Source: a virus (lineage: Duplodnaviria; Heunggongvirae; Uroviricota; Caudoviricetes). From it: a stretch of DNA of 64,000 nt. The notes under the pieces are model-generated. The model was not told the origin of the DNA. It saw only the letters and a list, made by a program, of their open reading frames with translations, and searched no databases. Of the stretch, positions 19,035 to 47,806 are shown piece after piece. The DNA lies in the IMG/VR virus record IMGVR_UViG_3300044712_001463. One strand, 5' to 3'. The stretch's first letter is position 1. Every line of letters starts with the position of its first letter. The translations under genes were made by a program, and so were the position numbers.

Positions 19035-19038
19035 TCAA

Positions 19039-27073: not shown

Positions 27074-27078
27074 GCCAA

Positions 27079-28691: not shown

Positions 28692-28719
28692 TTGACATGT
28701 GTCCTAGGGCGAGTATAAT
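28692..28719 (+). promoter_or_regulatory. promoter (TTGACAtgt variant)
   Basis: -35/-10 consensus. Confidence 0.6.
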
Positions 28720-28889
28720 CAGGGTATGAATCAACCACTTCTCAGGAGGCTCTCATGGCGACTTTTAGGAAAGTTCATAAGAAGGGGACTTGGCGATAAA
28801 AGGTGTTTATTTATTACTCCTTTTTTGATATAATTTGATCCAGGAGGTAGTTCTCCATTTCGGAGGACGGATCAAAAAGGGGCAATCAA

Positions 28890-29141
28890 ATGAGAAACCT
28901 ATATCGCTGGGTTCTAGAAAAGGAGATAAAGAGGATAGGCTTGCATGAGGGCTCGGTCTGCATTGTTCCTTTGGGCAAGGATGTCTATCTAGTTGGGGAC
29001 GGCAACAGATTCATTGAAGCCAAGGGGCATAAGATTCTTAGAATCCTTAAGAAGGTGCCTAATAAGGCTGGATACGATTTTCTGTGGCAGTCATTGAAGC
29101 CACTGCGGAAGCCAAAGAAAGTAGCTGACAAAACAAGATAA
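28890..29141 (+). CDS. hypothetical small basic protein (first GC-rich cassette)
   Basis: Promoter 28692; terminator downstream. Confidence 0.5.
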   Translation: MRNLYRWVLEKEIKRIGLHEGSVCIVPLGKDVYLVGDGNRFIEAKGHKILRILKKVPNKAGYDFLWQSLKPLRKPKKVADKTR

Positions 29142-29621: not shown

Positions 29622-29846
29622 ATGAGACGCAAGCGTTGTCCTGTATGTGGAGACCTTCCCGAGTATTGTTGCAGTGGAGATAAGATCGGTTTCTATGGTC
29701 ACTTCTTGGAGTGCCCTAGACATAGGTGTAGGCTCAGGACCCAGTATTATGATCATCCAGACAAAGCATTGCAAGCCTGGAACGAACGACTCGCACTCTG
29801 TTATGCAGGAAAGTTAGCTGACCTGAAGCCTAAGAGGAAGTCATGA
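29622..29846 (+). CDS. Cys-rich zinc-finger-like protein (CPVCG...CPRHRC)
   Basis: Promoter 29574, RBS aaggagg; ATGA coupled to tilS. Confidence 0.55.
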   Translation: MRRKRCPVCGDLPEYCCSGDKIGFYGHFLECPRHRCRLRTQYYDHPDKALQAWNERLALCYAGKLADLKPKRKS

Positions 29847-30475
29847 TCCGTTTTGAAAAGCGACTAGTGGATAAGAGCAAGCATGTGCACGTAGCGTGCT
29901 CAGGTGGAGTTGACTCCATGGCAGTGTGTGACTTCCTGAAGAGGGGTGGCTTCAATGTCCGCCCCGTCTTCTTCAACCATGGCACTGAGACGAGTCGTGC
30001 GGCGGAGATCTTCCTGGAGAACTATTTCACTGTAGGCTTCACCAAAGGCAAGTTGTATGGCGAGAAGCCTAAGGATAAGTCCTGGGAGGAATACTGGCGC
30101 GATGAGCGCTATAAGTTCTTCAACAGCCTAGGCTTGGAGACAATTGTCACTGCGCATCACCTAGATGACTGTGTCGAATCTTACGTCTTCAGTGCACTGC
30201 ATGGGAATGCCAAACTTCCCATGGTTCACCGTAGGCTCGGGCGCAGTATCGTCGTCCGCCCCTTCATGATGACCTCGAAGAGCGACCTAGTCGCCTGGGC
30301 TAAGCAGCATAATGTGCCCTGGATGGAAGATGCTAGCAACTTCGATGTCTCAGTGGGAACCCGGAACTACGTGCGGCATGCGTTGATGCCTGGCATCCTT
30401 CGAGTCAACCCTGGTATTTCCAAGGTGGTGGCTAAGAAGGTTAGAGAATTATACTTGACAAGTTTGGCGAAGTGA
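29843..30475 (+). CDS. tilS: tRNA(Ile)-lysidine synthetase TilS-like (N-terminal catalytic domain only, 210 aa)
   Basis: PP-loop ACSGGVDSMAV; FNHGT; TAHHLDDCVESYVFSALHG; RPFMM..K.DLVAWAK.H..PWMEDASN. Confidence 0.75.
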   Translation: MIRFEKRLVDKSKHVHVACSGGVDSMAVCDFLKRGGFNVRPVFFNHGTETSRAAEIFLENYFTVGFTKGKLYGEKPKDKSWEEYWRDERYKFFNSLGLETIVTAHHLDDCVESYVFSALHGNAKLPMVHRRLGRSIVVRPFMMTSKSDLVAWAKQHNVPWMEDASNFDVSVGTRNYVRHALMPGILRVNPGISKVVAKKVRELYLTSLAK

Positions 30476-33547: not shown

Positions 33548-33615
33548 GAAGACAAAGGGTAAGGCTTTCCCCTTCTAACGAAAGCCAACAAAGAACATCT
33601 CTCTACGAGGCAGTC

Positions 33616-35020: not shown

Positions 35021-35096
35021 GCCGCGATAGCTCAGTTGGTAGAGCACCTGCCTGAAGAGCAGGGTGTCGGGGGTTCGACTCCCTCTTGCGGCACCA
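35021..35096 (+). tRNA. tRNA-Phe (anticodon GAA)
   Basis: Acceptor GCCGCGA/TTGCGGC, loop CTGAAGA, CCA. Confidence 0.75.
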
Positions 35097-35106
35097 AAAG
35101 TTATGA

Positions 35107-35183
35107 TGCGGGATAGAGCAGCCCGGTAGCTCGTCAGGTTCATACCCTGAAGGTCGCTGGTTCAAATCCAGCTCCCGCACCCA
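35107..35183 (+). tRNA. tRNA with CAT anticodon (Met or Ile2), U1-A72
   Basis: Acceptor TGCGGGA/TCCCGCA, loop TTCATAC, T-loop TTCAAAT, CCA. Confidence 0.65.
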
Positions 35184-35477
35184 ATATTCCAAGAAGTAAA
35201 ACACATACTCGTTTTCATAGGTGCTCACATGGGATGCATGCCACATTTTAATTAGTAAGGTGCCCTTAGAGTTCTCTTCCAGAGCCTGGGGACCAAAGTC
35301 AGCGACCGCCCCTGAAGCGACGGTATCGGGACAGAGGTTCTAGTCAGGGACAGTGAAGAGAGTGTCAACGGTGTCGAGCCGGGGTAAAATCCGTAGAGAC
35401 GCAACCGCTTTGAGAGGGAGTCCTGCCCCAATAGGTATAGTATCAAAAATTAGGTCTAGGAAGACTTTCTTAGACGA

Positions 35478-35556
35478 GACTCCCTGGTAGTTTAGTGGCA
35501 AAACGCCCGCATTATAAGCGGGAAACGTCCGGCATCGAAGCCGAACCCTAGGAGTA
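35478..35556 (+). pseudogene. tRNA-like remnant with TAT anticodon loop (possible degenerate tRNA-Ile UAU)
   Basis: Good D-arm (GTTT/AAAC) and anticodon arm (CCCGC-ATTATAA-GCGGG) but defective T-arm and acceptor; embedded in long hairpin. Confidence 0.3.
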
Positions 35557-35671
35557 GTCTTAGAAAGCACAACACCTAGAAGCCTTATGGCTCTTCGAGT
35601 CGTTGAGAGACGGAGAGAAGTCCTAAGTTTTGATACTCAATTATGTTTATATATAATACTATGGAAGACAA

Positions 35672-35712
35672 TAAGCCCTCGGACGCATTAGCGACTGTGG
35701 GCTTTTATTTTG
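35672..35712 (+). terminator. rho-independent terminator ending tRNA-cluster transcript
   Basis: aagccctcgg...ctgtgggcttttatttt. Confidence 0.55.
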
Positions 35713-35715
35713 CCC

Positions 35716-35743
35716 TTGACAAGTAGGCTAGGATATGTATAAT
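35716..35743 (+). promoter_or_regulatory. cassette promoter
   Basis: consensus. Confidence 0.7.
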
Positions 35744-35768
35744 AGAGCCATCACTCAAGGAGGCTGCG

Positions 35769-36095
35769 ATGTCAGACCGTCGAATCATCGAGTATGAAGA
35801 CTTGCTTCACCCTGGCACTCTTGTTCGGCTCTATTACAAGGGTTCGGTTCTTCAGAACATGACCGAGATGGTGAAACTCGATGCGCCTGGCACCGATTGG
35901 GTGGTTCGCAGGACGAACTCCAATTCCTACCAGCGGCGCAGGGTTGCAGACAATGCTCGCAGGAAGCATGAGGCTGAGGTCTACGGGGATCAGACGCCCC
36001 CGAAGAAGAAGGAGATGCCATTGGATGCGGCTGAGATCATGAAGGCTTTTGAGGCGGCGGGTTCGCCTCCTCCAACCCCAGAGGTTGCGGCATAA
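35769..36095 (+). CDS. hypothetical protein
   Basis: Promoter 35716; RBS aaggagg. Confidence 0.5.
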   Translation: MSDRRIIEYEDLLHPGTLVRLYYKGSVLQNMTEMVKLDAPGTDWVVRRTNSNSYQRRRVADNARRKHEAEVYGDQTPPKKKEMPLDAAEIMKAFEAAGSPPPTPEVAA

Positions 36096-36116
36096 AAGGG
36101 GGTAGAAAGGTAAGTC

Positions 36117-36482
36117 GTGAAAAACTTCATTGACTACAAAATGGATCCCTACGTTGAGTATGACTACTCCCATAATTTCTTTAAGACAGATGGGATGGAT
36201 AGTTTTTTGAAAAGTATCCCAACTAGGGAGGCTAAGATGAACAGGAAATCGGGCAAGGCTGTCAGGGCTACGGTTAGCGGCACGGTTCCGCTGACCTTGA
36301 CCGAGAGCATCAACAAGATCACCAAGTCGGTGGGAAAGAAACATCCCAACGTCAAGGTCCAGGTGGTTCTTGAGGGAATCGTCACCGTGACCTACAAGGT
36401 TATCGGGACGAGCCTTGACAAGGCAGAGGTCGAAGCCTTTACCCAGGACTTGGTTGGCAAAATTAAGTCAGCCATCGCCTAA
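36117..36482 (+). CDS. hypothetical protein (start uncertain: GTG 36117, ATG 36141 or ATG 36237 with AGGGAGG SD)
   Basis: 121 aa frame. Confidence 0.4.
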   Translation: MKNFIDYKMDPYVEYDYSHNFFKTDGMDSFLKSIPTREAKMNRKSGKAVRATVSGTVPLTLTESINKITKSVGKKHPNVKVQVVLEGIVTVTYKVIGTSLDKAEVEAFTQDLVGKIKSAIA

Positions 36483-36489
36483 AAAAGAC

Positions 36490-36517
36490 TTGACAAGTTC
36501 CGAGAAACAGGTATAAT
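36490..36517 (+). promoter_or_regulatory. cassette promoter
   Basis: consensus. Confidence 0.7.
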
Positions 36518-36536
36518 AGTATCATCACCTTCATTC

Positions 36537-36782
36537 ATGGAGAACATCGTGGCAGATGTGTTGGCTACTCCGGCTACGGAGCAGAAGAAAGAACCGAAGC
36601 AGTCGTGGAACGCCCCCAAGGTGGCTGTCTATCCAGGCTACCGCAACACCAAGTTCGACAAGATCTTGATCGGAGCCAAGGGCGACAAGAACCGCAAGGG
36701 CTGGTATCGCCTGATGAACCAGGGTTGGGGTGAGGCTATCCCTGCCCGCAGGCGTGGTCCGGGTCAGCGCAGGACTGTGTAA
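36537..36782 (+). CDS. hypothetical basic protein
   Basis: Promoter 36490; weak SD. Confidence 0.45.
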   Translation: MENIVADVLATPATEQKKEPKQSWNAPKVAVYPGYRNTKFDKILIGAKGDKNRKGWYRLMNQGWGEAIPARRRGPGQRRTV

Positions 36783-36986
36783 GTTGGGAGTAGACCAGAT
36801 AGGATGTCCGAGACCGGGCACCTGAGCGCGAATGCTGGCTACCGTGCGCTACATTCTGAAAGCGCCACATCTTCGAGTCCTCGTAGGGAAACGGTCCAAC
36901 CCTGTTAAGAGCAGGTATCGAAAAATGCGGAAGCCCTCCGTTCCCTTCGGGGCGATAATAGAGGAAACCACTACGAGAGATAGGGA

Positions 36987-37016
36987 GAGGAGCCATTAGA
37001 GGCTCCTCTTCTTTGT
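36987..37016 (+). terminator. rho-independent terminator
   Basis: agaggagccattagaggctcctcttctttg. Confidence 0.6.
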
Positions 37017-37018
37017 AC

Positions 37019-37046
37019 TTGACAAGTTAGCGAGTCCGTGCATAAT
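37019..37046 (+). promoter_or_regulatory. cassette promoter (-10 CATAAT) driving ORF-less RNA
   Basis: acTTGACAagt...tgCATAATg. Confidence 0.6.
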
Positions 37047-37290
37047 GGAGTTGTAAGCACACAGGCTCCCTCGGGCTCAACTAGGCGAATCGCTGAGGGC
37101 ATTGAAGGGAGCCATTCGATACTGAGGCTCGTCATGAGCATAATTCGGAAAGCCAAAGGAGTCAAAGTCAAGGTGCGGTCTGGCGGACGCCCTTTACTTA
37201 TCTCCAAGTAAAGTCTTCGAGGGGCTACCTTCGGAGTGGTGCGCGAGGCGCTAGAGCCCTGGGAAATACTCCTGGGGCTCTATGCTTTTG
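37047..37290 (+). ncRNA. candidate small structured RNA (promoter + terminator unit with no ORF)
   Basis: Promoter 37019, terminator 37253-37290, no +-strand ORF >=60 aa, multiple UUCG-loop hairpins. Confidence 0.4.
37253..37290 (+). terminator. rho-independent terminator of ORF-less RNA unit
   Basis: agagccctgggaaatactcctggggctctatgcttttg. Confidence 0.6.
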
Positions 37291-37292
37291 TC

Positions 37293-37320
37293 TTGACAAG
37301 TAGCCCTAGATATGTATAAT
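37293..37320 (+). promoter_or_regulatory. cassette promoter
   Basis: consensus. Confidence 0.7.
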
Positions 37321-37349
37321 AGAGTCATCCTTCTTCTAAGAGGCTAGCC

Positions 37350-37811
37350 ATGTTCTTCAAGGACCTGCCAGGCGATGTCAAAGCCATCGTGGGTATCGCC
37401 AAGACCAACCTTGAAAGCGACGGTGAGTTGGTTCCTGTTGTCTTCTTGGGATGTAGGGGCTCCGTCAAGATTGTCCCTCTTGACATGTTCAATGATGAAA
37501 CCAAGTCTCTGATGGTCAGGACGGTCAGCATGCTCTACAAGGAGTCCAAGCCTGAGTGGGCTCTGCACATCTCTGAGTGCTGGATGAAGAAGTTCGAGAA
37601 GGATGAGGCTGTCCCTGAAAATGGTCGGGTCAGGGATGTCCCTGGTCGCATCGAGGCTGTCCTGTTTCATCTGAAGGTGAAAGACAAGTGCTACTTGGCT
37701 ACGGCTCCTATCATCGAAAACGCTGGCGAAAAGACCTTCACCATCGATGACATCGAGTTCATCGATGCCGATGGAATGGGTGGCAACTTTGCCGACATGT
37801 TTAAGGAGTAG
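37350..37811 (+). CDS. hypothetical protein
   Basis: Promoter 37293; leader ttcttctaagaggctagccATG. Confidence 0.55.
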   Translation: MFFKDLPGDVKAIVGIAKTNLESDGELVPVVFLGCRGSVKIVPLDMFNDETKSLMVRTVSMLYKESKPEWALHISECWMKKFEKDEAVPENGRVRDVPGRIEAVLFHLKVKDKCYLATAPIIENAGEKTFTIDDIEFIDADGMGGNFADMFKE

Positions 37812-37814
37812 GTC

Positions 37815-38006
37815 ATGACCAAACAGGAGATGGAGAAGGAACTTCAGGAACAAGCAAGGCTCCTCGGCATCAGCGGGAGTCGGGAAGCGGCTTTGATGGC
37901 AAAGAACGACGAACTCAGAAAGGCTCTTAGGCAGATTGCCAAATTGGATGCGAAGGTTCACCCGACATCCGTGGCAATCCTCATTGCTGAAGAGGCGCTT
38001 AAGTAG
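37815..38006 (+). CDS. small coiled-coil protein
   Basis: RBS aaggag; terminator follows. Confidence 0.5.
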   Translation: MTKQEMEKELQEQARLLGISGSREAALMAKNDELRKALRQIAKLDAKVHPTSVAILIAEEALK

Positions 38007-38027
38007 AATACTTCCCTCCCTGTGAAC

Positions 38028-38069
38028 AAAGAGAGCCCTGGGCGTAATAGCCTGGGGCTCTTTTGTTTG
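38028..38069 (+). terminator. rho-independent terminator
   Basis: agagccctgggcgtaatagcctggggctcttttgtttg. Confidence 0.65.
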
Positions 38070-38113
38070 TACTGGCGGAGGTCAGGACATTCTGCTGTGG
38101 CGCCTTCAATAGA

Positions 38114-38133
38114 ACTACTTATATATAAGTAGG
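38114..38133. repeat. inter-cassette palindrome aCTACTTA-TATA-TAAGTAGG
   Basis: Flank agaactactt identical to copy at 53464. Confidence 0.75.
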
Positions 38134-38166
38134 ATTAAGATCCTAGCTCTCCGGGAAGCTTTCTTC

Positions 38167-38194
38167 TTGACAAGCCAGGCTATTTGTGTATAAT
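38167..38194 (+). promoter_or_regulatory. cassette promoter
   Basis: consensus. Confidence 0.7.
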
Positions 38195-38212
38195 ATACCT
38201 AGGAGGTTAGCC

Positions 38213-38968
38213 ATGGAACTCAACATCTTCCATACATCGGACAATCACGGCAAGATGAAGAAGGGTGTGTCTTCCAAGTGGGAGGCTAAGCCCATTGACC
38301 TTGCTCTCCTTTCCGGGGATCACTGTCCGAACTATGTCCGGAACTTCTCCTTTGACCAGCACTACCTGCGCCATGTGAATCGCGATGAGGAGAAGATCCT
38401 TCAGCGCTCCTGGAACAAGAAGGTTCTGAAGTCATGGTTAGCCAGGAAGGGATGGCTTGATAAGACGGTCATCTGTCCGGGAAATCATGACTTCGCTGCC
38501 TTCCATGAGTTCCCAAACACTGTTGCTACTGGATCCAAGACCATCACCCTGGATATCAAAGGCGTGCAGGTGAAGATTGGCATCCTGGTGGGGACTAACA
38601 TCATCCCCACAGGAGGCATAGCCGGTGGCTGGTATGAGGAAGTTGATGAGTCGGAGTTCGAGCGTCGGATCTACGCGCTTGATTCCGATATCGATATCCT
38701 GCTGAGTCATCGCCCTCCATATGGCATCCTGGATATGGGATACGGCGAGCACATCGGTAGCCAACATCTGACTCGTGCCATCTTCGGCGGTGTCTTTGGA
38801 TCTACAGCACCGCACTTCAGCAAGTTGAAGTTGCACTGTTTTGGGCACGCACATGAATCCGGTGCCCAGAGGTTGCATCACAGCTTTGCCGGAGATGACC
38901 GGAGAAAGGGATCCATACTCTTCAGTAACGCTGCGTGCAGTTATGAGTTCCTGAGCATCGAAGTGTAG
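38213..38968 (+). CDS. calcineurin-like metallophosphoesterase
   Basis: FHTSDNHG, GDHCPNY, GNHDFAAF, GHAHE motifs; start ATG 38213 with aggagg SD. Confidence 0.7.
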   Translation: MELNIFHTSDNHGKMKKGVSSKWEAKPIDLALLSGDHCPNYVRNFSFDQHYLRHVNRDEEKILQRSWNKKVLKSWLARKGWLDKTVICPGNHDFAAFHEFPNTVATGSKTITLDIKGVQVKIGILVGTNIIPTGGIAGGWYEEVDESEFERRIYALDSDIDILLSHRPPYGILDMGYGEHIGSQHLTRAIFGGVFGSTAPHFSKLKLHCFGHAHESGAQRLHHSFAGDDRRKGSILFSNAACSYEFLSIEV

Positions 38969-38990
38969 TTCAATAAAATCAAGGCAATCC

Positions 38991-39027
38991 AAGAAGACCA
39001 TCTCCTAACCGAGGTGGTCTTCTTACG
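38991..39027 (+). terminator. terminator-like hairpin (weak U-tract)
   Basis: aagaagaccatctcctaaccgaggtggtcttctt. Confidence 0.4.
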
Positions 39028-39057
39028 TACGTGAACGATCATTTATGGGTCCTAATT

Positions 39058-39083
39058 AAACCTACTTAAATATAAGTAGGTTT
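39058..39083. repeat. inter-cassette palindrome AAACCTACTTA-AATA-TAAGTAGGTTT
   Basis: 11 bp perfect arms. Confidence 0.8.
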
Positions 39084-39135
39084 GATGTCCGGGCAGCCCA
39101 GTAACCCAGAACTTCTGGGGAGATGAGAGTTCTCC

Positions 39136-39163
39136 TTGACAAGTTCCAGAGAATATGTATAAT
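39136..39163 (+). promoter_or_regulatory. cassette promoter
   Basis: consensus. Confidence 0.7.
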
Positions 39164-39191
39164 AGGGTTACACTCACTCAAGAGGTTTATC

Positions 39192-39746
39192 ATGAAGGCT
39201 AGAGTTATGGTTACTCTTAACTGCAATCGGAAGTGTGATGGATGTTGCAATAAAGGTCCAGTCTTTAATTTACACCAAGTTGCCGAGAATCTTGATGAGA
39301 TTCTGAAGGCAGATGAAATTATGATTACTGGTGGTGAACCCATGCTTTTACCGATTAAGGTTTTTGAATTCATCAAGATGTTGCGCTATCATAGGCAATA
39401 CAAGGGAAAGATTTATCTCTACTCTGCCTACTATCCTTCAACGGATAGAGAAAAAGAACACTTCTGGTATTGTGCAGACCTTTGCGATGGTGTGCATTTT
39501 ACCTTGCACGCTGAGGCTACGGACAGGGATGTGGCGGACCTTAAAAGGCTGTCAGAAGATTTAGGGGAGTGGGATAAAAAGCACCGCTCTTTCCGTCTTG
39601 CCATTGACAAGCGCCTCTATGAAAAGTTTGATTTCTCCAACATTGATTTCACCTTTTGGGATGTGGTCAGAAAGTTAGTTTGGATGACTGACTGCCCTCT
39701 GCCTAAAGATGAGAAACTATTCCTTTATGACTTGACAAGTCTTTAA
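39192..39746 (+). CDS. small radical-SAM domain protein (NrdG- or QueE-like)
   Basis: CNRKCDGC = CxxxCxxC; ITGGEPML glycine-rich SAM motif; start ATG 39192. Confidence 0.6.
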   Translation: MKARVMVTLNCNRKCDGCCNKGPVFNLHQVAENLDEILKADEIMITGGEPMLLPIKVFEFIKMLRYHRQYKGKIYLYSAYYPSTDREKEHFWYCADLCDGVHFTLHAEATDRDVADLKRLSEDLGEWDKKHRSFRLAIDKRLYEKFDFSNIDFTFWDVVRKLVWMTDCPLPKDEKLFLYDLTSL

Positions 39747-39759
39747 GAATATGTATAAT
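39732..39759 (+). promoter_or_regulatory. cassette promoter (unit near-identical to 54441)
   Basis: consensus; overlaps upstream stop. Confidence 0.7.
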
Positions 39760-39788
39760 AAAGTTACACTCAAACAAAGGAGGCTGTC

Positions 39789-40160
39789 ATGCGCGGTGCG
39801 GTCGTAGTCACCATCAAGCAGGAAGGCATGGTTGCAGAGAACGAGGTCTTCCTAGTCGGTCATCGCGGTCGTGGCTCGAAGGCGACCTGGAACAAGGCTA
39901 TGGGATACTTCATCCACAGCATCGAGTTCGCCTTCAAGAACGCTGACGACCTTTCTGGTCTTCGGGAGTTTCGGAAGCAGTTGAAGGCGAAGACCGAAAT
40001 GACTTCCGAGTTCGAGGAGTCAGAGGACGGTGGATGGCACAAGGTCGTCAAGCCTCTCTACGCTAGCGAGGATGAGTGGTTCGAGGACATCTTTGGGGAT
40101 GGCTTGTATGAACTCCCCAACGGTGAGGAAATCACCATCGCTTGGGCTAGCGTCAAGTAA
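39789..40160 (+). CDS. hypothetical protein
   Basis: Promoter 39732; RBS aaggagg. Confidence 0.5.
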   Translation: MRGAVVVTIKQEGMVAENEVFLVGHRGRGSKATWNKAMGYFIHSIEFAFKNADDLSGLREFRKQLKAKTEMTSEFEESEDGGWHKVVKPLYASEDEWFEDIFGDGLYELPNGEEITIAWASVK

Positions 40161-40179
40161 CCCTATTCAGGAGTCTGTC

Positions 40180-40689
40180 ATGGGCTGGATCAAGATGGGT
40201 GAGTTTGAGGTTGCTTCCAAGCGAGTCATGATCAGTGACCCCTGCTATGAGTCAGGGCAATCCCTCACGGCACTCAACGGAACCTACGATGCCTACATCT
40301 TCAAGAACAAGGAAGGTCGGGTCATGAAGTTGAAGGCGGTCAGGAAGGGATCCAAGGTCGTGGGTGGAATGCAGGAGGCTAGGATTGCAGGCGTGGACTC
40401 AGGTCAGATGAGCATCACGGACTACCTGCAATACCGCGAGAGCAACCCCAATGACCTGCGCCTGGTCACTTCGCTCTGGCAGGACACGCTCAAGGATCCT
40501 GATGGTGGTCAGTTCTACGCCGTGTGTTGCTCCCTGACCTGTGGCGATGACAACGGTCAGACCCAGCAGGGAGGCGTCTTCGCTAGTGGGTGCGTTTCGC
40601 AGTCAGGCTATGGGGATGGGGGATATCCCATTTTCTATGGTGAGGATGAGAACGGCGATTCGGTGGCTTTTGAGGTCAGGTTCAAATAA
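40180..40689 (+). CDS. hypothetical Gly/Cys-rich protein
   Basis: Start ATG 40180 with caggag SD. Confidence 0.45.
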   Translation: MGWIKMGEFEVASKRVMISDPCYESGQSLTALNGTYDAYIFKNKEGRVMKLKAVRKGSKVVGGMQEARIAGVDSGQMSITDYLQYRESNPNDLRLVTSLWQDTLKDPDGGQFYAVCCSLTCGDDNGQTQQGGVFASGCVSQSGYGDGGYPIFYGEDENGDSVAFEVRFK

Positions 40690-40692
40690 AGC

Positions 40693-40720
40693 TTGACAAG
40701 TTTCCAAAAGTAAGTATAAT
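40693..40720 (+). promoter_or_regulatory. cassette promoter
   Basis: consensus. Confidence 0.7.
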
Positions 40721-40784
40721 CATACTTACAAGAGGCAAGGGTTCCCCTCTCCACAAGTGAATCCACTCTCTCTAGGAGGTCGTC

Positions 40785-41027
40785 ATGTCCGAGAACACCC
40801 CGCAGGTCGAGCAGGCTCCCCGCAAGGTCGGTCGTCCCGTCACCATGACCAAGGAGGAGGTCGAGAAGATCCTCTCCCTGGGCGCCGAGCGCAACATCTC
40901 GTGTCAGAAGGCGTGCGCCATGGTCCACAAGAGCTACAGCACCTTCATCAGCGCGGCTCACCGCTACGGCGTGGCTCTCCCCGCCCGTGGTCGCCGGTCG
41001 AGCAAGAAGGATGAGGTCGCCGCCTAA
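40785..41027 (+). CDS. small putative DNA-binding protein, paralog of 33616
   Basis: Promoter 40693; shared motifs with 33616. Confidence 0.55.
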   Translation: MSENTPQVEQAPRKVGRPVTMTKEEVEKILSLGAERNISCQKACAMVHKSYSTFISAAHRYGVALPARGRRSSKKDEVAA

Positions 41028-41054
41028 CAACCGGTCACAGCCGAGAAACACCCA

Positions 41055-41090
41055 AAGGGAGGCAGAGAAATCTGCCTCTCTTTATTTTAT
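41055..41090 (+). terminator. rho-independent terminator
   Basis: gggaggcagagaaatctgcctctctttatttt. Confidence 0.6.
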
Positions 41091-41111
41091 AAATAAGTAA
41101 TTAAATAGGGC

Positions 41112-41139
41112 TTGACAAGTCCTAGGGAATAGATATAAT
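41112..41139 (+). promoter_or_regulatory. cassette promoter
   Basis: consensus. Confidence 0.7.
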
Positions 41140-41157
41140 AGAATCAGGAGGAAAGTC

Positions 41158-41982
41158 ATGAGTCTTTTTGACGCGCTCAACAAACATCTGAAACCCACGT
41201 TCGAGGTCGGAACCTTCTTTGTCTGGGAGGGCTCCGTATTCTTTATTTGCGGCAAACAGAATACGCAGTATTTGATTGAGTTGGTTGACAAGGGAGAAAA
41301 CAGAAGGGTTCATATCTGCAATTGTGAATCTTCGAATGGATTTGCCTGGTATATCAACGAAGGCACACATGAAAGCATAGACATTGTAAAGAAAGACGGA
41401 ACCGAGATTCGTAAAACTATTAAAGAGATAAAAGCAGATAACACCAAGACATATCCGCATTCCCTTCCAGCATTTAAGATTGGCGAAAAAGCAATGCGTG
41501 GTCGTGCAGGAAAGAAAACTATTGTAATAGTAAAATACAATCCTGCTGATGACTCTTTCTATTATGGTGATGGAGTTGAGAGCACTTTCGGCAGTCATAA
41601 CGACAGATTTAATTATGGGCGTAACGAATACAAGGAATCTGAATACTCGAAGATAGAGGAACCAAAGCCCGAGGCTCCAGCCGCCGTAACTCCAATGCGT
41701 GTAATATCTCCCATGGCTGTGACCCCCATTTCGCATAGGGAAACTCCTGACCATGGTGCAGGAGCAGGTTACAGGCGTGACGCCATATCAGGACTTGGTC
41801 GTTACGAAATGACTGAGAATGGTCATAACAAGTTCTGGTCTATCCGCCAACTTCCTTCAGGAAACTACGAAGCCACCTGGGGAAGGATTGGAACGGCTGG
41901 TCAGTCTATTATTTATTCAGCCGTAGAAGCAGCAAAGAAAATCAGAGAGAAAATAGCCAAAGGCTATGTTTTCGTGGAGTAA
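41158..41982 (+). CDS. MSLFDALNKH-leader protein with C-terminal WGR domain
   Basis: Leader variant; PAFKIGEKA; C-term FWSIRQL...YEATWGRIGTAGQ...AKKIREKIAKGY = WGR. Confidence 0.6.
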   Translation: MSLFDALNKHLKPTFEVGTFFVWEGSVFFICGKQNTQYLIELVDKGENRRVHICNCESSNGFAWYINEGTHESIDIVKKDGTEIRKTIKEIKADNTKTYPHSLPAFKIGEKAMRGRAGKKTIVIVKYNPADDSFYYGDGVESTFGSHNDRFNYGRNEYKESEYSKIEEPKPEAPAAVTPMRVISPMAVTPISHRETPDHGAGAGYRRDAISGLGRYEMTENGHNKFWSIRQLPSGNYEATWGRIGTAGQSIIYSAVEAAKKIREKIAKGYVFVE

Positions 41983-42478
41983 TGCCGTGAGCCTATTTGA
42001 TGCTATTAACAAACAACTTAAGCCTGTCATTGAAGCAGGGAACATGTTTTCCATAGATGGAAACGTGTTTCTTATTTGCTATATGCCAGAAAACGATACC
42101 GTTTTATTGCAGATAGTCGAAAGGAAAAGTCAAGACCTTGCTATGTATAGGCACAATCCTAATCCTGGAGACGCATGGTATAGCGGCGATTGTTCGAATA
42201 GAATGTATTGGTTTAGGATTGATGGCAAACAGTATTTCTATAAGGACGTAAAGCAACAGGCAAAACCAGTCTTTAATTATCCGAAATCCCCTTTCAAGAT
42301 TGGGGAAAGGGTAAGGGTTAAAAATCCTAAAAAGGTTAACAGCAATCGTGAGGAATTTGTTATTGTATCCTGCCACTTCGAAAATGGTAAATACTACTAT
42401 TCAGCGGGCGACTTTAACACCCATGTCGCCAACTATCCCCATCACTATAATTCCCAAGATGAGTTAGAAAAGGCTTGA
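41966..42478 (+). CDS. MSLFDAINKQ-leader protein (GC-rich family homologue); probable GTG start at 41987
   Basis: VSLFDAINKQLKP; PFKIGERVRV SH3-like motif. Confidence 0.5.
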   Translation: MFSWSNAVSLFDAINKQLKPVIEAGNMFSIDGNVFLICYMPENDTVLLQIVERKSQDLAMYRHNPNPGDAWYSGDCSNRMYWFRIDGKQYFYKDVKQQAKPVFNYPKSPFKIGERVRVKNPKKVNSNREEFVIVSCHFENGKYYYSAGDFNTHVANYPHHYNSQDELEKA

Positions 42479-42502
42479 CAAGTTCCAGTTATTCGGTATA
42501 AT
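42475..42502 (+). promoter_or_regulatory. cassette promoter
   Basis: consensus; -35 overlaps upstream TGA. Confidence 0.7.
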
Positions 42503-42544
42503 AGGATACATGAGAAGTTTCAAACCCATTCTTATGAGGCGGTC

Positions 42545-42934
42545 ATGGACGAGAAGGAGATGGTGAAGTTCCTGGATCAGCGCATCGTGGAGATCAAGGC
42601 GCTCACGGACGACAGCCCCCAGGGTGTCAACAAGTTCCTTGAGTTGGCTCAGGCGGTCGGCACGGAGCACATCCTGCGGGCAACCTTCTTCAAGGACAAG
42701 GAAGTGGTCATGAAGGCGGCGGAGTATCTCTGCGAGGTCGCTGACATGATGAACCGCTTCGAACTCGATGCTCGGATGCAGCAGGTCGGTCCGGGCGTCC
42801 TCGCCCTCGCGGTTGGCAAGAAGGGTGCCTTCGATGCCCAGCCCAAGGAGCCCGTCAAGGCAACGGACGAGGCGCTCAGGGCTCTCCTCGCCCAGGCGCT
42901 CAAGGAGAACGAGAAGCCCGACACGGCTGCTTAA
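42545..42934 (+). CDS. hypothetical protein
   Basis: Promoter 42475; leader cttatgaggcggtcATG. Confidence 0.5.
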   Translation: MDEKEMVKFLDQRIVEIKALTDDSPQGVNKFLELAQAVGTEHILRATFFKDKEVVMKAAEYLCEVADMMNRFELDARMQQVGPGVLALAVGKKGAFDAQPKEPVKATDEALRALLAQALKENEKPDTAA

Positions 42935-42956
42935 GAACCAAATCCCAAGCGAGAAC

Positions 42957-42997
42957 GAGAAGACCCAGGTGCAACTAGCCTGGGTCTTTTTGTTTGT
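42957..42997 (+). terminator. rho-independent terminator
   Basis: agacccaggtgcaactagcctgggtctttttgtttg. Confidence 0.65.
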
Positions 42998-43036
42998 CAC
43001 GACGGAGGACTTCTGACTCAGTCGGGTACCTACTCG

Positions 43037-43056
43037 CCTACTTAAAAATAAGTAGG
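43037..43056. repeat. inter-cassette palindrome CCTACTTA-AAAA-TAAGTAGG
   Basis: Lies inside a shadow ORF; partial extra half-site upstream (acctactcg). Confidence 0.75.
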
Positions 43057-43090
43057 TCTGAAGTACCCCAGCCCTGTAGATCAAAAGAGC

Positions 43091-43118
43091 TTGACAAGTA
43101 TCCAGGTTTATATATAAT
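43091..43118 (+). promoter_or_regulatory. cassette promoter
   Basis: consensus. Confidence 0.7.
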
Positions 43119-43137
43119 AGAGTCATGGAGGAAAGCC

Positions 43138-43659
43138 ATGAGTCTCTTTGATGCCATAGCCAAACATACCAAGAAAGAGGTTGATTGGAATAAGGCTGGC
43201 GAGTTTTTCGAACTCGATGGCGTTATCTTTTCAATCAATCATATTTCTGACATTGGCAGTCACAACCAATCTGCGTATGTAGGCGTTCATTCCAATCCCC
43301 TTAAGAAAAAGGTCATGGTTGGGAGGTTCAGGTCTGGAGATTTTTCAGGACAACATGATTTGACTAGGATTACGGCAGGCGAAGGTAATTGCCATATGTA
43401 TAAAAGCGCATCGGATGGACCCAACGCCATTCAGGTTGATGGGAAAGTCTTTGTTATTGGCAGAGACATGTTCACTTCCTGCACTAAAAGGTTCCCTCTG
43501 TTTGGGCTCTTCGGCAAGACAATGAGGATCAAGGGAGGCGGCTACGGCGACTTTAAGGTTCAGACTGCCTGGTTGATGCCTGATGGCACTTGGCTGTGTT
43601 CAGCGGGACAGCATCCTAGGCGCTCACATAAAGTCAGCGATCTTGAAGTTATAGATTGA
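43138..43659 (+). CDS. MSLFDAIAKH-leader protein
   Basis: Promoter 43091; SD ggagga; start at ATG 43138. Confidence 0.55.
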   Translation: MSLFDAIAKHTKKEVDWNKAGEFFELDGVIFSINHISDIGSHNQSAYVGVHSNPLKKKVMVGRFRSGDFSGQHDLTRITAGEGNCHMYKSASDGPNAIQVDGKVFVIGRDMFTSCTKRFPLFGLFGKTMRIKGGGYGDFKVQTAWLMPDGTWLCSAGQHPRRSHKVSDLEVID

Positions 43660-43683
43660 CAAGTAAAGGGATTTAGATATAAT
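43656..43683 (+). promoter_or_regulatory. cassette promoter (ATTGACA)
   Basis: -35 overlaps upstream stop. Confidence 0.65.
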
Positions 43684-43701
43684 AGAGTCATGGAGGAAGT
43701 C

Positions 43702-44211
43702 ATGAGTCTTTTTGATGCACTCGCCAAACAACTTGTTTTGCCCTTCTCTACGAAAGAGAGTGAAGGGCGTATTCTGACCATCCCTGGAACGAAAATCAAG
43801 TTCCTTTTTCGTGTTTATGACCATAGCGATAACACCTGCTATCTTCAAATTTACAAGATGCCCGAAGATGTGAAATATATTCATGGCTTTATTAAGGGTA
43901 GTGATGACAATGTGGTTTGCAAGTGGGATGAAGAAGGGGAATGCCAATGGGTTAATCTTGCTCAAACAGACCTTGCTATTGTTTACAAGAACAAGAAGGT
44001 TAAAAAACTCTCGATTCAGGATGGCAGAGAAGGGTTTATTGTTGACCTGCAAGACCCGAAACCCAAGTTTTGGCACCAGAAGGTCAAGTTTGTCAATTCA
44101 AAGAAGCGGGCTTTTAAGATTGAAGAATATCGGATTAATGACGGAGTGTTTGAATACAGGGACTTCGATGGAAACTGGCAACAGGAAGAAAACCTCAAGG
44201 CGGCGGAGTAG
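43702..44211 (+). CDS. MSLFDALAKQ-leader protein
   Basis: Promoter 43656; SD ggaggaag; start ATG 43702. Confidence 0.55.
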   Translation: MSLFDALAKQLVLPFSTKESEGRILTIPGTKIKFLFRVYDHSDNTCYLQIYKMPEDVKYIHGFIKGSDDNVVCKWDEEGECQWVNLAQTDLAIVYKNKKVKKLSIQDGREGFIVDLQDPKPKFWHQKVKFVNSKKRAFKIEEYRINDGVFEYRDFDGNWQQEENLKAAE

Positions 44212-44214
44212 GTC

Positions 44215-44490
44215 ATGGGTAAGTTAAAGGTTGGCAAGCCCATCATCATTCAGCGTCCCATCTACGCAATCCTGCCGCCTAATGCCACACCTGAACAGTC
44301 TAGGCGATACCAGGAGGCTCTTGCCGCCCTTCGCAAGAGATACCCGAAGCCCTTTGAACCTAGCCTGAATCAAAAGTATCATCCTGATGCCATCGAAAAT
44401 ACACATGATACATTCGAGGAATATGTAAGCGCCTTAACTAAAGCCGCAATCAAAGAAGGAAAGATTCTATTCCCGTATCTTTGCTCTTGA
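44215..44490 (+). CDS. hypothetical protein
   Basis: SD ggagtagg; 91 aa. Confidence 0.45.
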   Translation: MGKLKVGKPIIIQRPIYAILPPNATPEQSRRYQEALAALRKRYPKPFEPSLNQKYHPDAIENTHDTFEEYVSALTKAAIKEGKILFPYLCS

Positions 44491-44514
44491 CAAGTTTCCT
44501 GAAATAGATATAAT
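44487..44514 (+). promoter_or_regulatory. cassette promoter
   Basis: consensus. Confidence 0.7.
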
Positions 44515-44545
44515 AACATCATCACCCATTCATAGGAGGTCGGTC

Positions 44546-44773
44546 ATGAAGCATTTGACACCGCCAGAGATGGTGGCGCGGAAGATGGTGCTGGACCAGA
44601 TCAAGGAGTTGACCGCCACGGTCGCCTCCAAGCCCGAGAACGAGAAGTTCATGATCGCCCTGCACTACGCCGCCTTCATCGGGTTCGTCCGCGAACAGCA
44701 GGACAAGGAAGCGGAGCAGGTCGGCATCGCCCTCTACAAGGAACTCGGCGTCGAGATCCCCGCCGAACTCTGA
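44546..44773 (+). CDS. hypothetical protein
   Basis: Promoter 44487; leader cataggaggtcggtcATG. Confidence 0.5.
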   Translation: MKHLTPPEMVARKMVLDQIKELTATVASKPENEKFMIALHYAAFIGFVREQQDKEAEQVGIALYKELGVEIPAEL

Positions 44774-44801
44774 GATCCTCCACAACTCATGAAAGACCCT
44801 T

Positions 44802-44835
44802 GAAGCCCTCGGAGAAATCCGGGGGCTTTCTGTTG
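44802..44835 (+). terminator. rho-independent terminator (duplicate of 33883)
   Basis: gaagccctcggagaaatccgggggctttctgttg. Confidence 0.55.
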
Positions 44836-44880
44836 TACTCTTCAGAACTCTCCGGCAACTACTTGCGGCGCCTGGATAGT

Positions 44881-44900
44881 TCTACTTATATATAAGTAGG
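44881..44900. repeat. inter-cassette palindrome tCTACTTA-TATA-TAAGTAGG
   Basis: family member. Confidence 0.75.
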
Positions 44901-44944
44901 TCTTAATATGATCGTACGATGAGTGCATCTCCGGCAAAACACTG

Positions 44945-44973
44945 CTTTAAAAACCCCTATATTTTGGTATAAT
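44945..44973 (+). promoter_or_regulatory. weaker promoter (TATAAT -10 at 44968, poor -35)
   Basis: ggTATAATAaaatag. Confidence 0.35.
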
Positions 44974-45004
44974 AAAATAGACCATAAACTCAAAGGAGCC
45001 CCAT

Positions 45005-45544
45005 ATGTTTAGAGATATCGCATTCTTCACGAGCATGTCATCGCACGATAAGAACATCCAGAAGGTAATCGATGACAGCTTCATAAACTACCTTACGAAG
45101 AGAGTTGTTGATGTGAAGAACTCGAAGGAGATCTTCCTCATCTTGTCCATGATTGAGATGCAGAACAAATACACGCGTGCGATGGAGTTGCTCAGGTCTA
45201 TCGAACTCGCAGTGCCGATGCTAGCAACTGTTCTCATCATGGCAGCAGGTGGCAAAAGTCTTCCGTTCTGGTTGTTCTTGCCTCTAGTGCTTGCCATCTT
45301 CTGGTCGTTCGATTTCTTTATCATGCGCCCAATCAAAATCCAGGTCATCCAGGGCTACCAGTTCAGGTTGATGTGCGATCTCACGCAGCAAGAAGACGCA
45401 GTCATCTGCCGGGAAGACTCAACTGATGACAGCAAGATTATAGTCAATAAAGACCCTGAGAAATCAGTGTATCTCCAGGAGTTCATTTCCAATGGTGAGA
45501 AGCTCCTCGAACAGTTCCGGCAAGACCTACTTAAAGGTAAGTAG
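45005..45544 (+). CDS. membrane protein (2 TM)
   Basis: RBS aaaggagcc; weaker promoter (-10 at 44968). Confidence 0.5.
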   Translation: MFRDIAFFTSMSSHDKNIQKVIDDSFINYLTKRVVDVKNSKEIFLILSMIEMQNKYTRAMELLRSIELAVPMLATVLIMAAGGKSLPFWLFLPLVLAIFWSFDFFIMRPIKIQVIQGYQFRLMCDLTQQEDAVICREDSTDDSKIIVNKDPEKSVYLQEFISNGEKLLEQFRQDLLKGK

Positions 45545-45653
45545 GCAGTCAATCTGCATTCACGGGCGCACACTGAGCAATGTCTGCAAAGCTTGCTTTG
45601 ACTCAGTGTGGCGTTCGGGGGAAGTTGCTGGATTCAAATATGATTTCACCAAG

Positions 45654-45830
45654 ATGGGCATCCCCAAAACATTCATGTGGGGTATGCGGTTGGTGTACGA
45701 AGAGAGTTCGGGTATAACCTGGACGATTAATACTGAGCGTTTGGATTCAGCCCCGGCGGATGTCGGGACTAATCATTTAGATGTCATCCTGGAAATCATT
45801 AAACTCTACTTGACAAGTTTGCGAGAATAG
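45654..45830 (+). CDS. possible small ORF (start unclear; GTG 45606 alternative)
   Basis: No SD; low support. Confidence 0.25.
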   Translation: MGIPKTFMWGMRLVYEESSGITWTINTERLDSAPADVGTNHLDVILEIIKLYLTSLRE

Positions 45831-45837
45831 ATATAAT
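45810..45837 (+). promoter_or_regulatory. cassette promoter
   Basis: consensus. Confidence 0.7.
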
Positions 45838-45860
45838 AGGAACTGTGAGATGCAGCAGGT

Positions 45861-45954
45861 GGTAGGGAGAAACGCTAGCGGTTATCACGGTCGAAGAACA
45901 TTCTCCGCCGACGGGAGACAAGGATAACCAAGACCTAGATTCCCTACCACCATC
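45861..45954 (+). promoter_or_regulatory. structured 5' leader: 11 bp inverted repeat GGTGGTAGGGA ... TCCCTACCACC enclosing ~72 nt, upstream of Cys-rich protein gene
   Basis: Between promoter 45810 and ATG 45974; no ORF. Confidence 0.4.
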
Positions 45955-45973
45955 CAAAACATTGAGGTTTCAA

Positions 45974-46626: not shown

Positions 46627-46628
46627 CC

Positions 46629-47015: not shown

Positions 47016-47032
47016 ACGGATATAGATATAAT
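47005..47032 (+). promoter_or_regulatory. cassette promoter
   Basis: consensus. Confidence 0.7.
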
Positions 47033-47060
47033 AGAGCCATACCCCAACTTAGAGGGCGTC

Positions 47061-47225: not shown

Positions 47226-47268
47226 GGTAGCCATGACCCGTCCATTCTATGATGGTGAGAGGTAATTC

Positions 47269-47769: not shown

Positions 47770-47806
47770 AATCCGAATCAAATCAAAGAGAAAAATGCGC
47801 TAGCCC

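What the first reader, a model, noticed from the sequence alone, without database searches (positions are those of the whole stretch)
37019..37290. A promoter-terminator unit with no ORF: candidate structured small RNA
A full consensus promoter at 37019 and an intrinsic terminator at 37253-37290 bracket about 230 nt. The stretch has no plausible +-strand ORF. It is rich in GC hairpins with UUCG-type loops (ggctccctcgggctc, ggggctaccttcggagtggt). Elsewhere in the array every promoter drives protein genes, so this unit stands out as a likely regulatory or stable RNA.
Basis: seen in the sequence. Interest (0 to 1): 0.6.

Follow-up and report, generated by a model that had tools for sequence, protein, structure and literature searches.

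The report
Mini early-gene cassette in huge phage
A roughly 235-base promoter-to-terminator unit in a giant-phage early-gene array is real, but it carries a 25-codon ORF for a very basic peptide behind the phage's signature ribosome-binding site and folds no better than its surroundings, so it is more likely a tiny protein gene than a structured RNA, and no relatives exist to settle the question.

Summary
The promoter (37019-37046, TTGACAAGT..CATAAT) and the intrinsic terminator (37252-37282 plus a T-rich tail) are real. They bracket a stand-alone transcript of about 238 nt.

- **An ORF is present.** ATG 37134 opens a 25-codon ORF (MSIIRKAKGVKVKVRSGGRPLLISK) behind GAGGCTCGTC-ATG. That SD+GTCATG signature occurs 31 times on the + strand of the array. 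Thirty copies head ORFs of 54-282 codons and the 31st is this one. It occurs zero times on the minus strand, and about 0.5 per 28 kb are expected by chance.
- **The fold is ordinary.** Without the terminator, z is about -2.3, the 16th percentile of local 198-nt windows. The "UUCG loops" are not loops in the predicted fold.
- **Other promoters in the array do not all drive protein genes.** Those at 30455 and 34495 drive tRNAs.

There is no Rfam, tRNA or tmRNA match. No homologue of the DNA, the peptide frame or the flanking proteins turned up in any collection, so neither covariation nor peptide conservation can be tested.

Most likely this is an early micro-gene mRNA (confidence about 0.5). 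A non-coding or dual-function sRNA (about 0.25) and a decayed remnant (about 0.15) remain open. Interest is modest.

The parts
37019..37046 (+). Sigma-70-type early promoter: extended -35 TTGACAAGT (37019-37027), 16-nt spacer, -10 CATAAT (37041-37046). Start inferred near G37053.
   Evidence: Same family as 34 other + strand promoters in the window. The start position is inferred from -10 spacing and has not been measured.
37064..37113 (+). 5' leader hairpin P1, 50 nt, branched tip, -24.6 kcal/mol. It sits inside an 81-nt leader.
   Evidence: MFE folds. The leader alone gives z = -1.0, so the hairpin is not statistically unusual.
37124..37136 (+). Ribosome-binding site and start codon: GAGG-CTCGTC-ATG (SD 37124-37127, ATG 37134-37136).
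   Evidence: It matches the array's start signature SD+GTCATG. There are 31 + strand sites, 30 of them heading ORFs of 54 codons or more, 0 on the minus strand, and 0.49 expected per 28 kb. PWM score is 10.4. Unpaired probability is 0.45, equal to the mean of real genes.
37134..37211 (+). 25-codon ORF with TAA stop: MSIIRKAKGVKVKVRSGGRPLLISK. 2.7 kDa, pI 12, net charge about +7.5.
   Evidence: Codon log-likelihood ratio is +6.7 bits, or 0.28 per codon. That lies between real genes (0.47-0.86) and ORF-free DNA (-0.17 to 0.01). This is weakly positive.
37215..37236 (+). 3' hairpin CUUCGAGGG-GCUA-CCUUCGGAG, 9 bp, -12.6 kcal/mol, between the stop codon and the terminator.
37252..37290 (+). Intrinsic terminator: 13-bp stem, 5-nt loop (37252-37282, -21.8 kcal/mol), tail TGCTTTTG. 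It abuts the next promoter at 37293.

Best explanation
The unit is a stand-alone early micro-gene. Host sigma-70 RNA polymerase starts at the TTGACAAGT..CATAAT promoter and makes an mRNA of about 238 nt, which ends at the intrinsic terminator. Ribosomes load at GAGG-N6-AUG (37124-37136) and translate a 25-residue, strongly cationic peptide. Its alternating VKVKV stretch, an RSGG turn and PLLI suggest a small amphipathic beta-hairpin. The 5' hairpin P1 and the 3' hairpins most plausibly stabilise the short mRNA.

**Shown:** promoter, terminator, ORF, start-site signature, accessible ribosome-binding site.

**Inferred:** transcription, translation, the peptide being the functional product, and its acting on a polyanionic host target (nucleic acid, ribosome or membrane) during host takeover.
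For: 1. The composite start signature (GAGG|GGAG|AGGA)-N1-7-GTCATG marks 31 unique + strand positions in 28-56 kb. Thirty of them head ORFs of 54-282 codons and the 31st is ATG 37134. It occurs 0 times on the minus strand, and shuffles give 0.49 per 28 kb, roughly 0.004 per 230 nt.
2. The fixed-register PWM score of 10.4 lies among genuine gene starts.
3. The RBS unpaired probability is 0.45, against 0.45 +/- 0.10 for 26 real promoter-proximal genes.
4. The codon-usage ratio is positive in the ORF frame at +6.7 bits. None of 219 stop-free out-of-frame segments reaches it. The other two frames across the region score -32 and -28.
5. The array already holds small genes of 47-57 codons with the same signals. 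The stop-to-terminator distance of 41 nt is typical: 32 nt for gene 33616 and 23 nt for gene 37815.
6. Nothing favours an RNA instead. There is no Rfam, tRNA or tmRNA match, and fold z-score and ensemble diversity are ordinary.
7. Prodigal-type callers cannot report ORFs under 30 codons (my own knowledge). That explains why the Logan gene table for the identical contig has no + strand gene here.
Against: - Codon usage is weak. At 0.28 bits per codon it sits at the 10th percentile of real N-termini, and 25% of stop-free minus-strand segments score as high.
- Only 78 of about 238 nt are coding. The 81-nt leader is the second longest in the array among promoter-proximal protein genes.
- The segment GGAGCCATTCGA..GAGGCTCGTC resembles the upstream terminator GGAGCCATTAGA-GGCTCCTC (repeats D6 and D10). 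Part of the SD match could therefore be inherited from a hairpin rather than selected.
- There is no homologue anywhere, so there is no evidence of purifying selection on the peptide.
- The peptide has no significant family match.
Confidence: 0.5

Rival explanations
1. Non-coding or dual-function small RNA. The roughly 238-nt transcript is itself the effector, for example a base-pairing or protein-sponging early phage sRNA. The 25-codon ORF is incidental, or is translated in addition.
For: - The unit is an autonomous promoter-terminator cassette in which two thirds of the RNA is untranslated.
- The full-length fold is stable and the centroid nearly equals the MFE: -100.2 against -101.1 kcal/mol, z = -4.3.
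- Codon usage in the ORF is only weakly gene-like.
- The unit lies 1.5 kb from a cluster of 7-8 tRNA genes, two of which have their own promoters of the same type.
- Orphan ORF-free transcripts of 236-618 nt are documented by RNA-seq in the jumbo phage PA5oct (PMC7318152, read).
Against: - The z-score is mostly the terminator. The body is at the 16th percentile of local windows and ensemble diversity is near the median.
- There is no Rfam hit even at E <= 10. The only nearby weak hit is sraL at 21 bits against a 39-bit threshold, and it lies upstream at 36881-37014 on the other terminator.
- No extended antisense complementarity to the rest of the window was found.
- The chance of an SD+GTCATG start signal in 230 nt of non-coding sequence is about 0.004.
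- The U-tail is short (UGCUUUUG), which is atypical for Hfq-class sRNAs (my own knowledge).
Confidence: 0.25
2. Decayed or newly born cassette with no selected product. This would be a remnant of a longer early gene truncated by recombination among the many repeated promoter and terminator modules, or a fortuitous unit assembled from duplicated promoter and hairpin pieces. It may still be transcribed and even translated.
For: - Repeats D1, D6, D10 and D11 show that pieces of this unit resemble the neighbouring terminator-promoter junction and the terminator arms.
- The -10 is the weaker CATAAT, seen in only 2 of 35 promoters.
- Codon signal is intermediate.
- The adjacent 204-nt stretch 36783-36985 is also ORF-free and unstructured (z = -0.3, codon ratio about 0). 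That is consistent with local gene decay.
- The reading frame stays open upstream to 37038, giving 57 codons.
Against: - Promoter, RBS and terminator are all intact.
- The 57-codon extended frame has no homologue among 1.84 billion representative proteins. The single hit, P0005, is a repeat-protein artefact.
- In-register identity to the downstream gene's 5' end, 39% overall and 35% in the coding part, is no higher than to unrelated gene starts. A partial duplication of the neighbouring gene is therefore not supported.
Confidence: 0.15
3. Cis-regulatory leader. This would be a leader-peptide attenuator or riboswitch whose terminator controls read-through into the 153-aa gene at 37350.
For: The layout of promoter, short ORF or structured leader, intrinsic terminator and then gene is the classical attenuator arrangement. 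The small ORF and gene 37350 are in the same frame, 216 nt apart.
Against: - A 12-of-12 consensus promoter (37293-37320) sits between the terminator and the gene. Terminator-then-promoter junctions are the normal unit boundary in this array, for example 29537 followed by 29574.
- The stop codon lies 41 nt before the terminator stem.
- No convincing antiterminator was found. The only sequence complementary to the terminator's 5' arm is locked inside P1, 180 nt upstream, and the repeat I6 pairing involves the 3' arm (and inspection).
- The peptide has no run of one regulatory amino acid.
- No riboswitch family matches.
Confidence: 0.05

Closest known systems
Phage small early proteins (under 100 aa, down to about 26 aa)
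   Same: - Host-RNAP early promoter and its own terminator.
- A very short ORF below gene-caller thresholds, with an orphan sequence.
- Phage small proteins are numerous and often act in host takeover (review PMC11323111).
- PA5oct RNA-seq added small peptides missed by annotation (PMC7318152).
- T4 Stp, a 26-residue early peptide, is an example recalled from my own knowledge and not tested here.
   Different: - There is no sequence similarity to any described small protein.
- Translation is not demonstrated.
- The peptide is unusually cationic (+7.5 over 25 residues).
- It is embedded in an mRNA that is two thirds untranslated.
Orphan non-coding RNAs of jumbo phages (for example PA5oct ncRNA001-004)
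   Same: Transcripts of a few hundred nucleotides from regions judged to lack plausible ORFs, in a very large phage genome, with no similarity to known sequences (PMC7318152). The size is similar: ncRNA001 is 236 nt.
   Different: - Those were defined by RNA-seq, and no known promoters were found for them.
- Here there is no expression data.
- An ORF with a canonical start signal is present.
Small stable RNAs in phage tRNA regions (T4 species 1/2, rnaC/rnaD; T5 tRNA region). Recalled from my own knowledge.
   Same: Short non-tRNA units encoded near a phage tRNA cluster. Here the cluster of 7-8 tRNAs lies 1.5-6.5 kb upstream.
   Different: - The T4 RNAs are processed out of the tRNA precursor transcript.
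- This unit has its own promoter and terminator, and is separated from the tRNAs by three protein genes.
- It shows no tRNA-like fold.
Dual-function sRNAs (SgrS/SgrT, RNAIII/hld, SR1/SR1P). Recalled from my own knowledge.
   Same: A terminated transcript of about 200-500 nt in which a short ORF of 26-43 codons occupies a minority of a structured RNA.
   Different: There is no evidence of a base-pairing seed or target here, and no homology. This is offered as a working analogy, not as family membership.

Membership tests
Any Rfam 15 RNA family, including riboswitches, 6S, tmRNA, GOLLD/ROOL and sRNAs | Covariance-model score at or above the family's gathering threshold | tested here: not met
   Gathering scan of the whole window: only 8 tRNAs, none in 36783-37349. 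Scan at E <= 10 over 36400-37500: nothing inside 37053-37290 better than E = 6. The best nearby hit is sraL at 21 bits against 39, located at 36881-37014.
tRNA / tmRNA | Cloverleaf or tmRNA architecture detected by ARAGORN or Rfam | tested here: not met
   no call in 36000-38000.
Independent sigma-70 transcription unit | -35/-10 promoter and a downstream intrinsic terminator on the same strand, with no intervening promoter | tested here: met
   promoter 37019-37046 (11 of 12 matches plus the AGT extension), terminator 37252-37282 with a T-rich tail, next promoter at 37293.
Protein-coding small ORF (micro-gene) | Start codon preceded by the genome's own ribosome-binding signature | tested here: met
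   GAGGCTCGTC-ATG. There are 31 such + strand sites, 30 at ORFs of 54 codons or more, 0 on the minus strand and 0.49 expected per 28 kb. RBS accessibility equals that of real genes.
Protein-coding small ORF (micro-gene) | Gene-like codon usage in frame | tested here: inconclusive
   +6.7 bits over 24 codons (0.28 per codon). Real genes give 0.47-0.86 and ORF-free DNA gives -0.17 to 0.01. The value is the 10th percentile of real N-termini, and 25% of minus-strand stop-free segments do as well.
Protein-coding small ORF (micro-gene) | Conservation of the reading frame and peptide in relatives (synonymous-biased change) | not testable with these tools
   No homologue was found in any of these:
- phages, blastn
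- IMG/VR
- JGI metagenomes
- GTDB genomes
- 1.84 billion protein representatives
- relatives' loci L002-L005

The one other contig with this locus, L001, is 100% identical.
Structured functional RNA (generic) | Folding energy or definition clearly beyond the local genomic background | tested here: not met
   Body z = -2.2 to -2.4, the 16th percentile of 125 local windows. Ensemble diversity is at the 40th percentile.
Structured functional RNA (generic) | Compensatory base-pair covariation across homologues | not testable with these tools
   There are no homologous sequences to align (same calls as for peptide conservation).
Pfam DUF4224 (small phage winged-helix-like domain) | Score at or above the 22-bit gathering cut-off over the domain | tested here: not met
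   13.9 bits, E = 0.055, covering only profile positions 24-40 of 45. The 57-aa extended frame gives no hit.
Leader-peptide attenuator / transcriptional riboswitch | A terminator that competes with an alternative antiterminator helix and directly precedes the regulated gene | tested here: not met
   A full consensus promoter lies between the terminator and the gene. No usable antiterminator was found among the inverted repeats. No riboswitch family matches.

The most novel reading that the evidence does not exclude
The unit encodes a new orphan class of early phage RNA. This would be a roughly 240-nt sigma-70-driven transcript acting as a regulatory or dual-function RNA (sRNA plus a 25-aa polycationic peptide) in host takeover by an uncultured huge phage, with no relative in Rfam or in any public sequence collection.
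Probability: 0.2. Interest if true: 0.5.

Novelty: new member of a known kind. Interest (0 to 1): 0.3.

Why it matters
If the peptide is real, it adds a 25-residue polycationic product to the early, host-takeover repertoire of a huge phage. It would also show that this phage's very regular start signature (SD-N-GTCATG) can rescue micro-genes that gene callers cannot report. If the RNA is instead the effector, it would be an orphan phage sRNA. Either way, the case shows that "promoter plus terminator without an annotated ORF" is not enough to call a structured RNA, and that fold z-scores must be computed without the terminator and against local background. Because the element is a singleton with no relatives, its wider significance is limited until expression data or related phages appear.

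Tried and rejected
1. **Rfam.** Searched at gathering and at permissive thresholds. Nothing was found in the unit.
2. **tRNA and tmRNA**. None.
3. **Homologue hunts, all empty.**
   - blastn against 50,697 phage records and megablast of 24 kb (tRNA-sized hits only).
   - The flanking 153-aa and 81-aa proteins are singletons among 5.8 billion clusters.
   - The metallophosphatase at 38213 gave relatives L002/L003 (56% identity) and L004 (35%). blastn, nhmmer and tblastn find no counterpart of 36783-37349 or of the peptide in them.
   - LR756500.1 (L005) is too distant: 24% GC and 27% aa identity.
   - A promoter-motif scan of IMG/VR gave 34 loci with no shared proteins.
   - Peptide-pattern scans of viral, metagenome and genome collections found nothing.
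   - Exact 21-25-mers are absent.
   - The 25-aa query was too short for the search for related loci.
4. **The 57-codon extended frame as a real protein.** Rejected. It has no canonical in-frame start between the start site and 37134. It has no homologues, since P0005 is a beta-helix repeat artefact, and no Pfam match.
5. **Minus-strand ORFs** 36971-37207 and 36736-36996. The latter was called as a gene in the Logan table. Rejected: no Pfam match, and all promoters and genes of the array are on the + strand.
6. **Partial duplication of the downstream gene's 5' end.** Suggested by repeats D2, D3 and D5. Rejected: the in-register identity is no higher than to unrelated gene starts.
7. **Paralogues of the unit within the window.** Only the promoter recurs.
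8. **Attenuator model.** No antiterminator was found.
9. A first background z-score run timed out. It was repeated in parallel.

Full report
**Context**

The window is a fragment of an uncultured huge-phage-like genome.
- The locus around the finding (window 35038-47811) is 100% identical to a Logan contig, L001.
- The protein database records a 94.9-kb JGI contig for the same genes.
- Its only detectable relatives are distant. One is a 462-kb uncultured phage at 27% aa identity for one protein. The others are metagenomic contigs L002-L004, at 35-56% identity for a metallophosphatase.
- Between about 28.7 and 54.5 kb lies an array of 32 + strand promoters of the form TTGACAAGT-N13-TATAAT. Three more lie at 1-3.5 kb, and none is on the minus strand.
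- Genes in the array start with a very regular signal, AGGAGG-nn-GTC-ATG.
- A cluster of 7 (ARAGORN) to 8 (Rfam) tRNA genes lies at 30.5-35.6 kb.

**Checking the observation**

The promoter at 37019-37046 (TTGACA-16-CATAAT) and the terminator at 37252-37282 are real.
- The promoter scores 11 of 12 and carries the array-specific AGT extension.
- The terminator has 13 bp, 7 of them GC, a 5-nt loop and the tail TGCTTTTGTC.
- The next promoter begins at 37293.
- The unit is therefore a self-contained cassette of about 238 nt, with the start inferred at G37053 from the -10 spacing.
- It is the shortest complete cassette in the array.

1. *The stretch is not ORF-free.* ATG 37134 opens a 25-codon ORF, MSIIRKAKGVKVKVRSGGRPLLISK, ending with TAA at 37209-37211. 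It is preceded by GAGGCTCGTC.
2. *The sequences quoted as "UUCG-type loops" are not loops in the predicted fold.*
   - GGCTCCCTCGGGCTC is the 5' arm of a 50-nt hairpin (37064-37113, -24.6 kcal/mol).
   - The 37215-37236 hairpin has the loop GCUA, with UUCG in both arms.
3. *The impressive z-score is mostly the terminator.*
   - The full unit gives z = -4.3.
   - The body 37053-37250 gives -2.2 to -2.4, the 16th percentile of 125 equal-length windows from the same array (mean -0.94, sd 1.43).
   - Its ensemble diversity, 37.7, is near the background median of 41.
4. *Not every other promoter drives a protein gene.* Those at 30455 and 34495 run straight into tRNA-Met and tRNA-Lys.

**What the small ORF evidence is worth**

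- *Start signature.* The composite signature (GAGG|GGAG|AGGA)-N1-7-GTCATG occurs at 31 unique positions on the + strand of 28-56 kb.
  - Thirty of them head ORFs of 54-282 codons, and the remaining one is ATG 37134.
  - It occurs zero times on the minus strand, and shuffles give 0.49 per 28 kb.
  - That expectation is about 0.004 for a 230-nt stretch. Allowing for post-hoc choice of the motif, it is still of the order of 0.01.
- *Accessibility.* The predicted unpaired probability of the RBS is 0.45. That is identical to the mean for 26 real promoter-proximal genes, 0.45 +/- 0.10.
- *Codon usage.* This is only weakly supportive.
  - The ORF frame scores +6.7 bits over 24 codons, or 0.28 per codon.
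  - Neighbouring genes score 0.47-0.86, and ORF-free or spurious frames score -0.17 to 0.01.
  - None of 219 out-of-frame stop-free segments reaches this value, but 25% of minus-strand stop-free segments do.
- *The peptide.* It is 2.7 kDa, pI 12, with net charge about +7.5.
  - Its only family hit is sub-threshold: DUF4224 at 13.9 bits against a 22-bit cut-off.
  - No PDB sequence matches.

**RNA-side evidence**

- No Rfam family matches at gathering thresholds or at E <= 10 inside the unit.
- There is no tRNA or tmRNA.
- There is no paralogue of the unit in the window and no long antisense complementarity.
- In favour of an RNA reading:
  - The MFE and centroid of the full transcript nearly coincide.
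  - Two thirds of the transcript is untranslated.
  - The 81-nt leader is long for this array.
  - Orphan ORF-less transcripts of similar size are documented in the jumbo phage PA5oct (PMC7318152).

**Comparative evidence is unobtainable with current data**

- The two flanking proteins (81 and 153 aa) are singletons among 5.8 billion protein clusters.
- The 57-codon extended frame has no true homologue among 1.84 billion representatives. The one hit is a repeat artefact.
- Peptide-pattern and exact-DNA scans of IMG/VR, JGI metagenomes and GTDB genomes found nothing.
- The nearest related loci, L002-L005, hold no counterpart.
- Neither covariation nor frame conservation can therefore be assessed.

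**Interpretation**

1. *Micro-gene mRNA (confidence about 0.5).* The most economical reading is an early micro-gene. Host RNA polymerase makes a short mRNA, stabilised by 5' and 3' hairpins, which is translated from a canonical start into a 25-residue polycationic peptide. The peptide is plausibly a small amphipathic beta-hairpin that binds a polyanionic host target. Transcription, translation and target are all inferred.
2. *Non-coding or dual-function sRNA (about 0.25).*
3. *Decayed or fortuitous cassette (about 0.15).*
   - Its pieces resemble neighbouring terminator and promoter modules.
   - The adjacent 204-nt stretch 36783-36985 is also ORF-free and unstructured.
4. *Attenuator or riboswitch for gene 37350 (about 0.05).* A full consensus promoter between the terminator and the gene, and the lack of an antiterminator, argue against it.

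**Comparison with known systems**

The unit works like the many small early phage proteins reviewed in PMC11323111. Alternatively, it works like the orphan jumbo-phage ncRNAs of PMC7318152, or like the dual-function sRNAs I recall from my own knowledge. It is a member of no defined family: every sequence- or structure-defined membership test that could be run was not met. I therefore file it as a new, orphan member of a known kind, a short early phage transcription unit with a micro-ORF. Interest is modest, because it is a singleton without expression or comparative support.

Noticed in passing
window 45810-45975: A consensus promoter is followed by an ORF-free leader of about 130 nt. It has a long-range closing stem GGTGGTAGGGA (45860-45870) / TCCCTACCACC (45942-45952). 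Its inner helices are GGTTATC/GATAACC and TCTCC-GCCGAC-GGGAGA. It sits ahead of a Cys-rich 95-aa ORF (45974-46261). It looks like a three-way-junction cis-regulatory leader or riboswitch candidate. There is no Rfam gathering hit.
   Followed up: partly
window 36783-36985: A 204-nt ORF-free stretch lies between the stop of the 81-aa gene and its terminator (36986-37009). This is an unusually long 3' UTR for this compact array. Fold z = -0.3 and codon ratio is about 0 in all frames, so it may be a decayed gene. The weak sraL-like Rfam hit (21 bits against 39) lies on the terminator.
   Followed up: partly
window 28692-28890: The promoter at 28692 is followed by a strong consensus start (GGAGGCTCTC-ATG, PWM score 15.1). 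That start opens only a 14-codon basic ORF, MATFRKVHKKGTWR. A T-rich stretch follows before the next gene at 28890. This is a second possible micro-ORF or upstream ORF.
   Followed up: no
window 28692-54468 (and 954-3463): There are 35 near-identical + strand promoters TTGACAAGT-N13-TATAAT and none on the minus strand. Gene starts share the unusual context SD-N-GTC-ATG. The distant relative L004 uses the same TTGACAAG promoter type.
   Followed up: partly
window ~12267-27618: A tandem run of about 30 back-to-back ORFs of 150-170 aa at 32-34% GC. Eight that were aligned share a conserved N-terminus (MISYRANLFESLNKQI...) but only 15-25% identity overall, and five tested have no Pfam match. This contrasts with about 50% GC in the promoter array at 30-54 kb, a striking compositional two-part structure.
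   Followed up: partly
window 35481-35554: Rfam calls an eighth tRNA at 32.1 bits (gathering threshold 29) that ARAGORN does not report. It may be a degenerate or unusual tRNA.
   Followed up: no
window 33548-33615 and 40721-40784: Two units with long leaders (58-62 nt) carry similar 5' hairpins, AAGGG..CCCCTT and AGAGG..CCCCTCT. They sit ahead of genes of 78 and 80 aa. This may be a conserved leader element of paralogous units.
   Followed up: no
L003 2488-2700: In the related contig, a promoter-to-promoter unit of about 190 nt has no credible ORF and a long-range stem TTTCGCGCT / AGCGCGAAA. It is a sequence-unrelated candidate small RNA in a similar early-promoter array.
   Followed up: no
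window 1009-2031, 29843-30475, 39192-39746: The phage encodes apparent tRNA- or nucleoside-modification enzymes alongside its tRNA set. These are an MnmA-like tRNA methyltransferase, a PP-loop ATP_bind_3 (TilS-like) protein, and a radical-SAM-like protein that scores below the Pfam cut-off.
   Followed up: no
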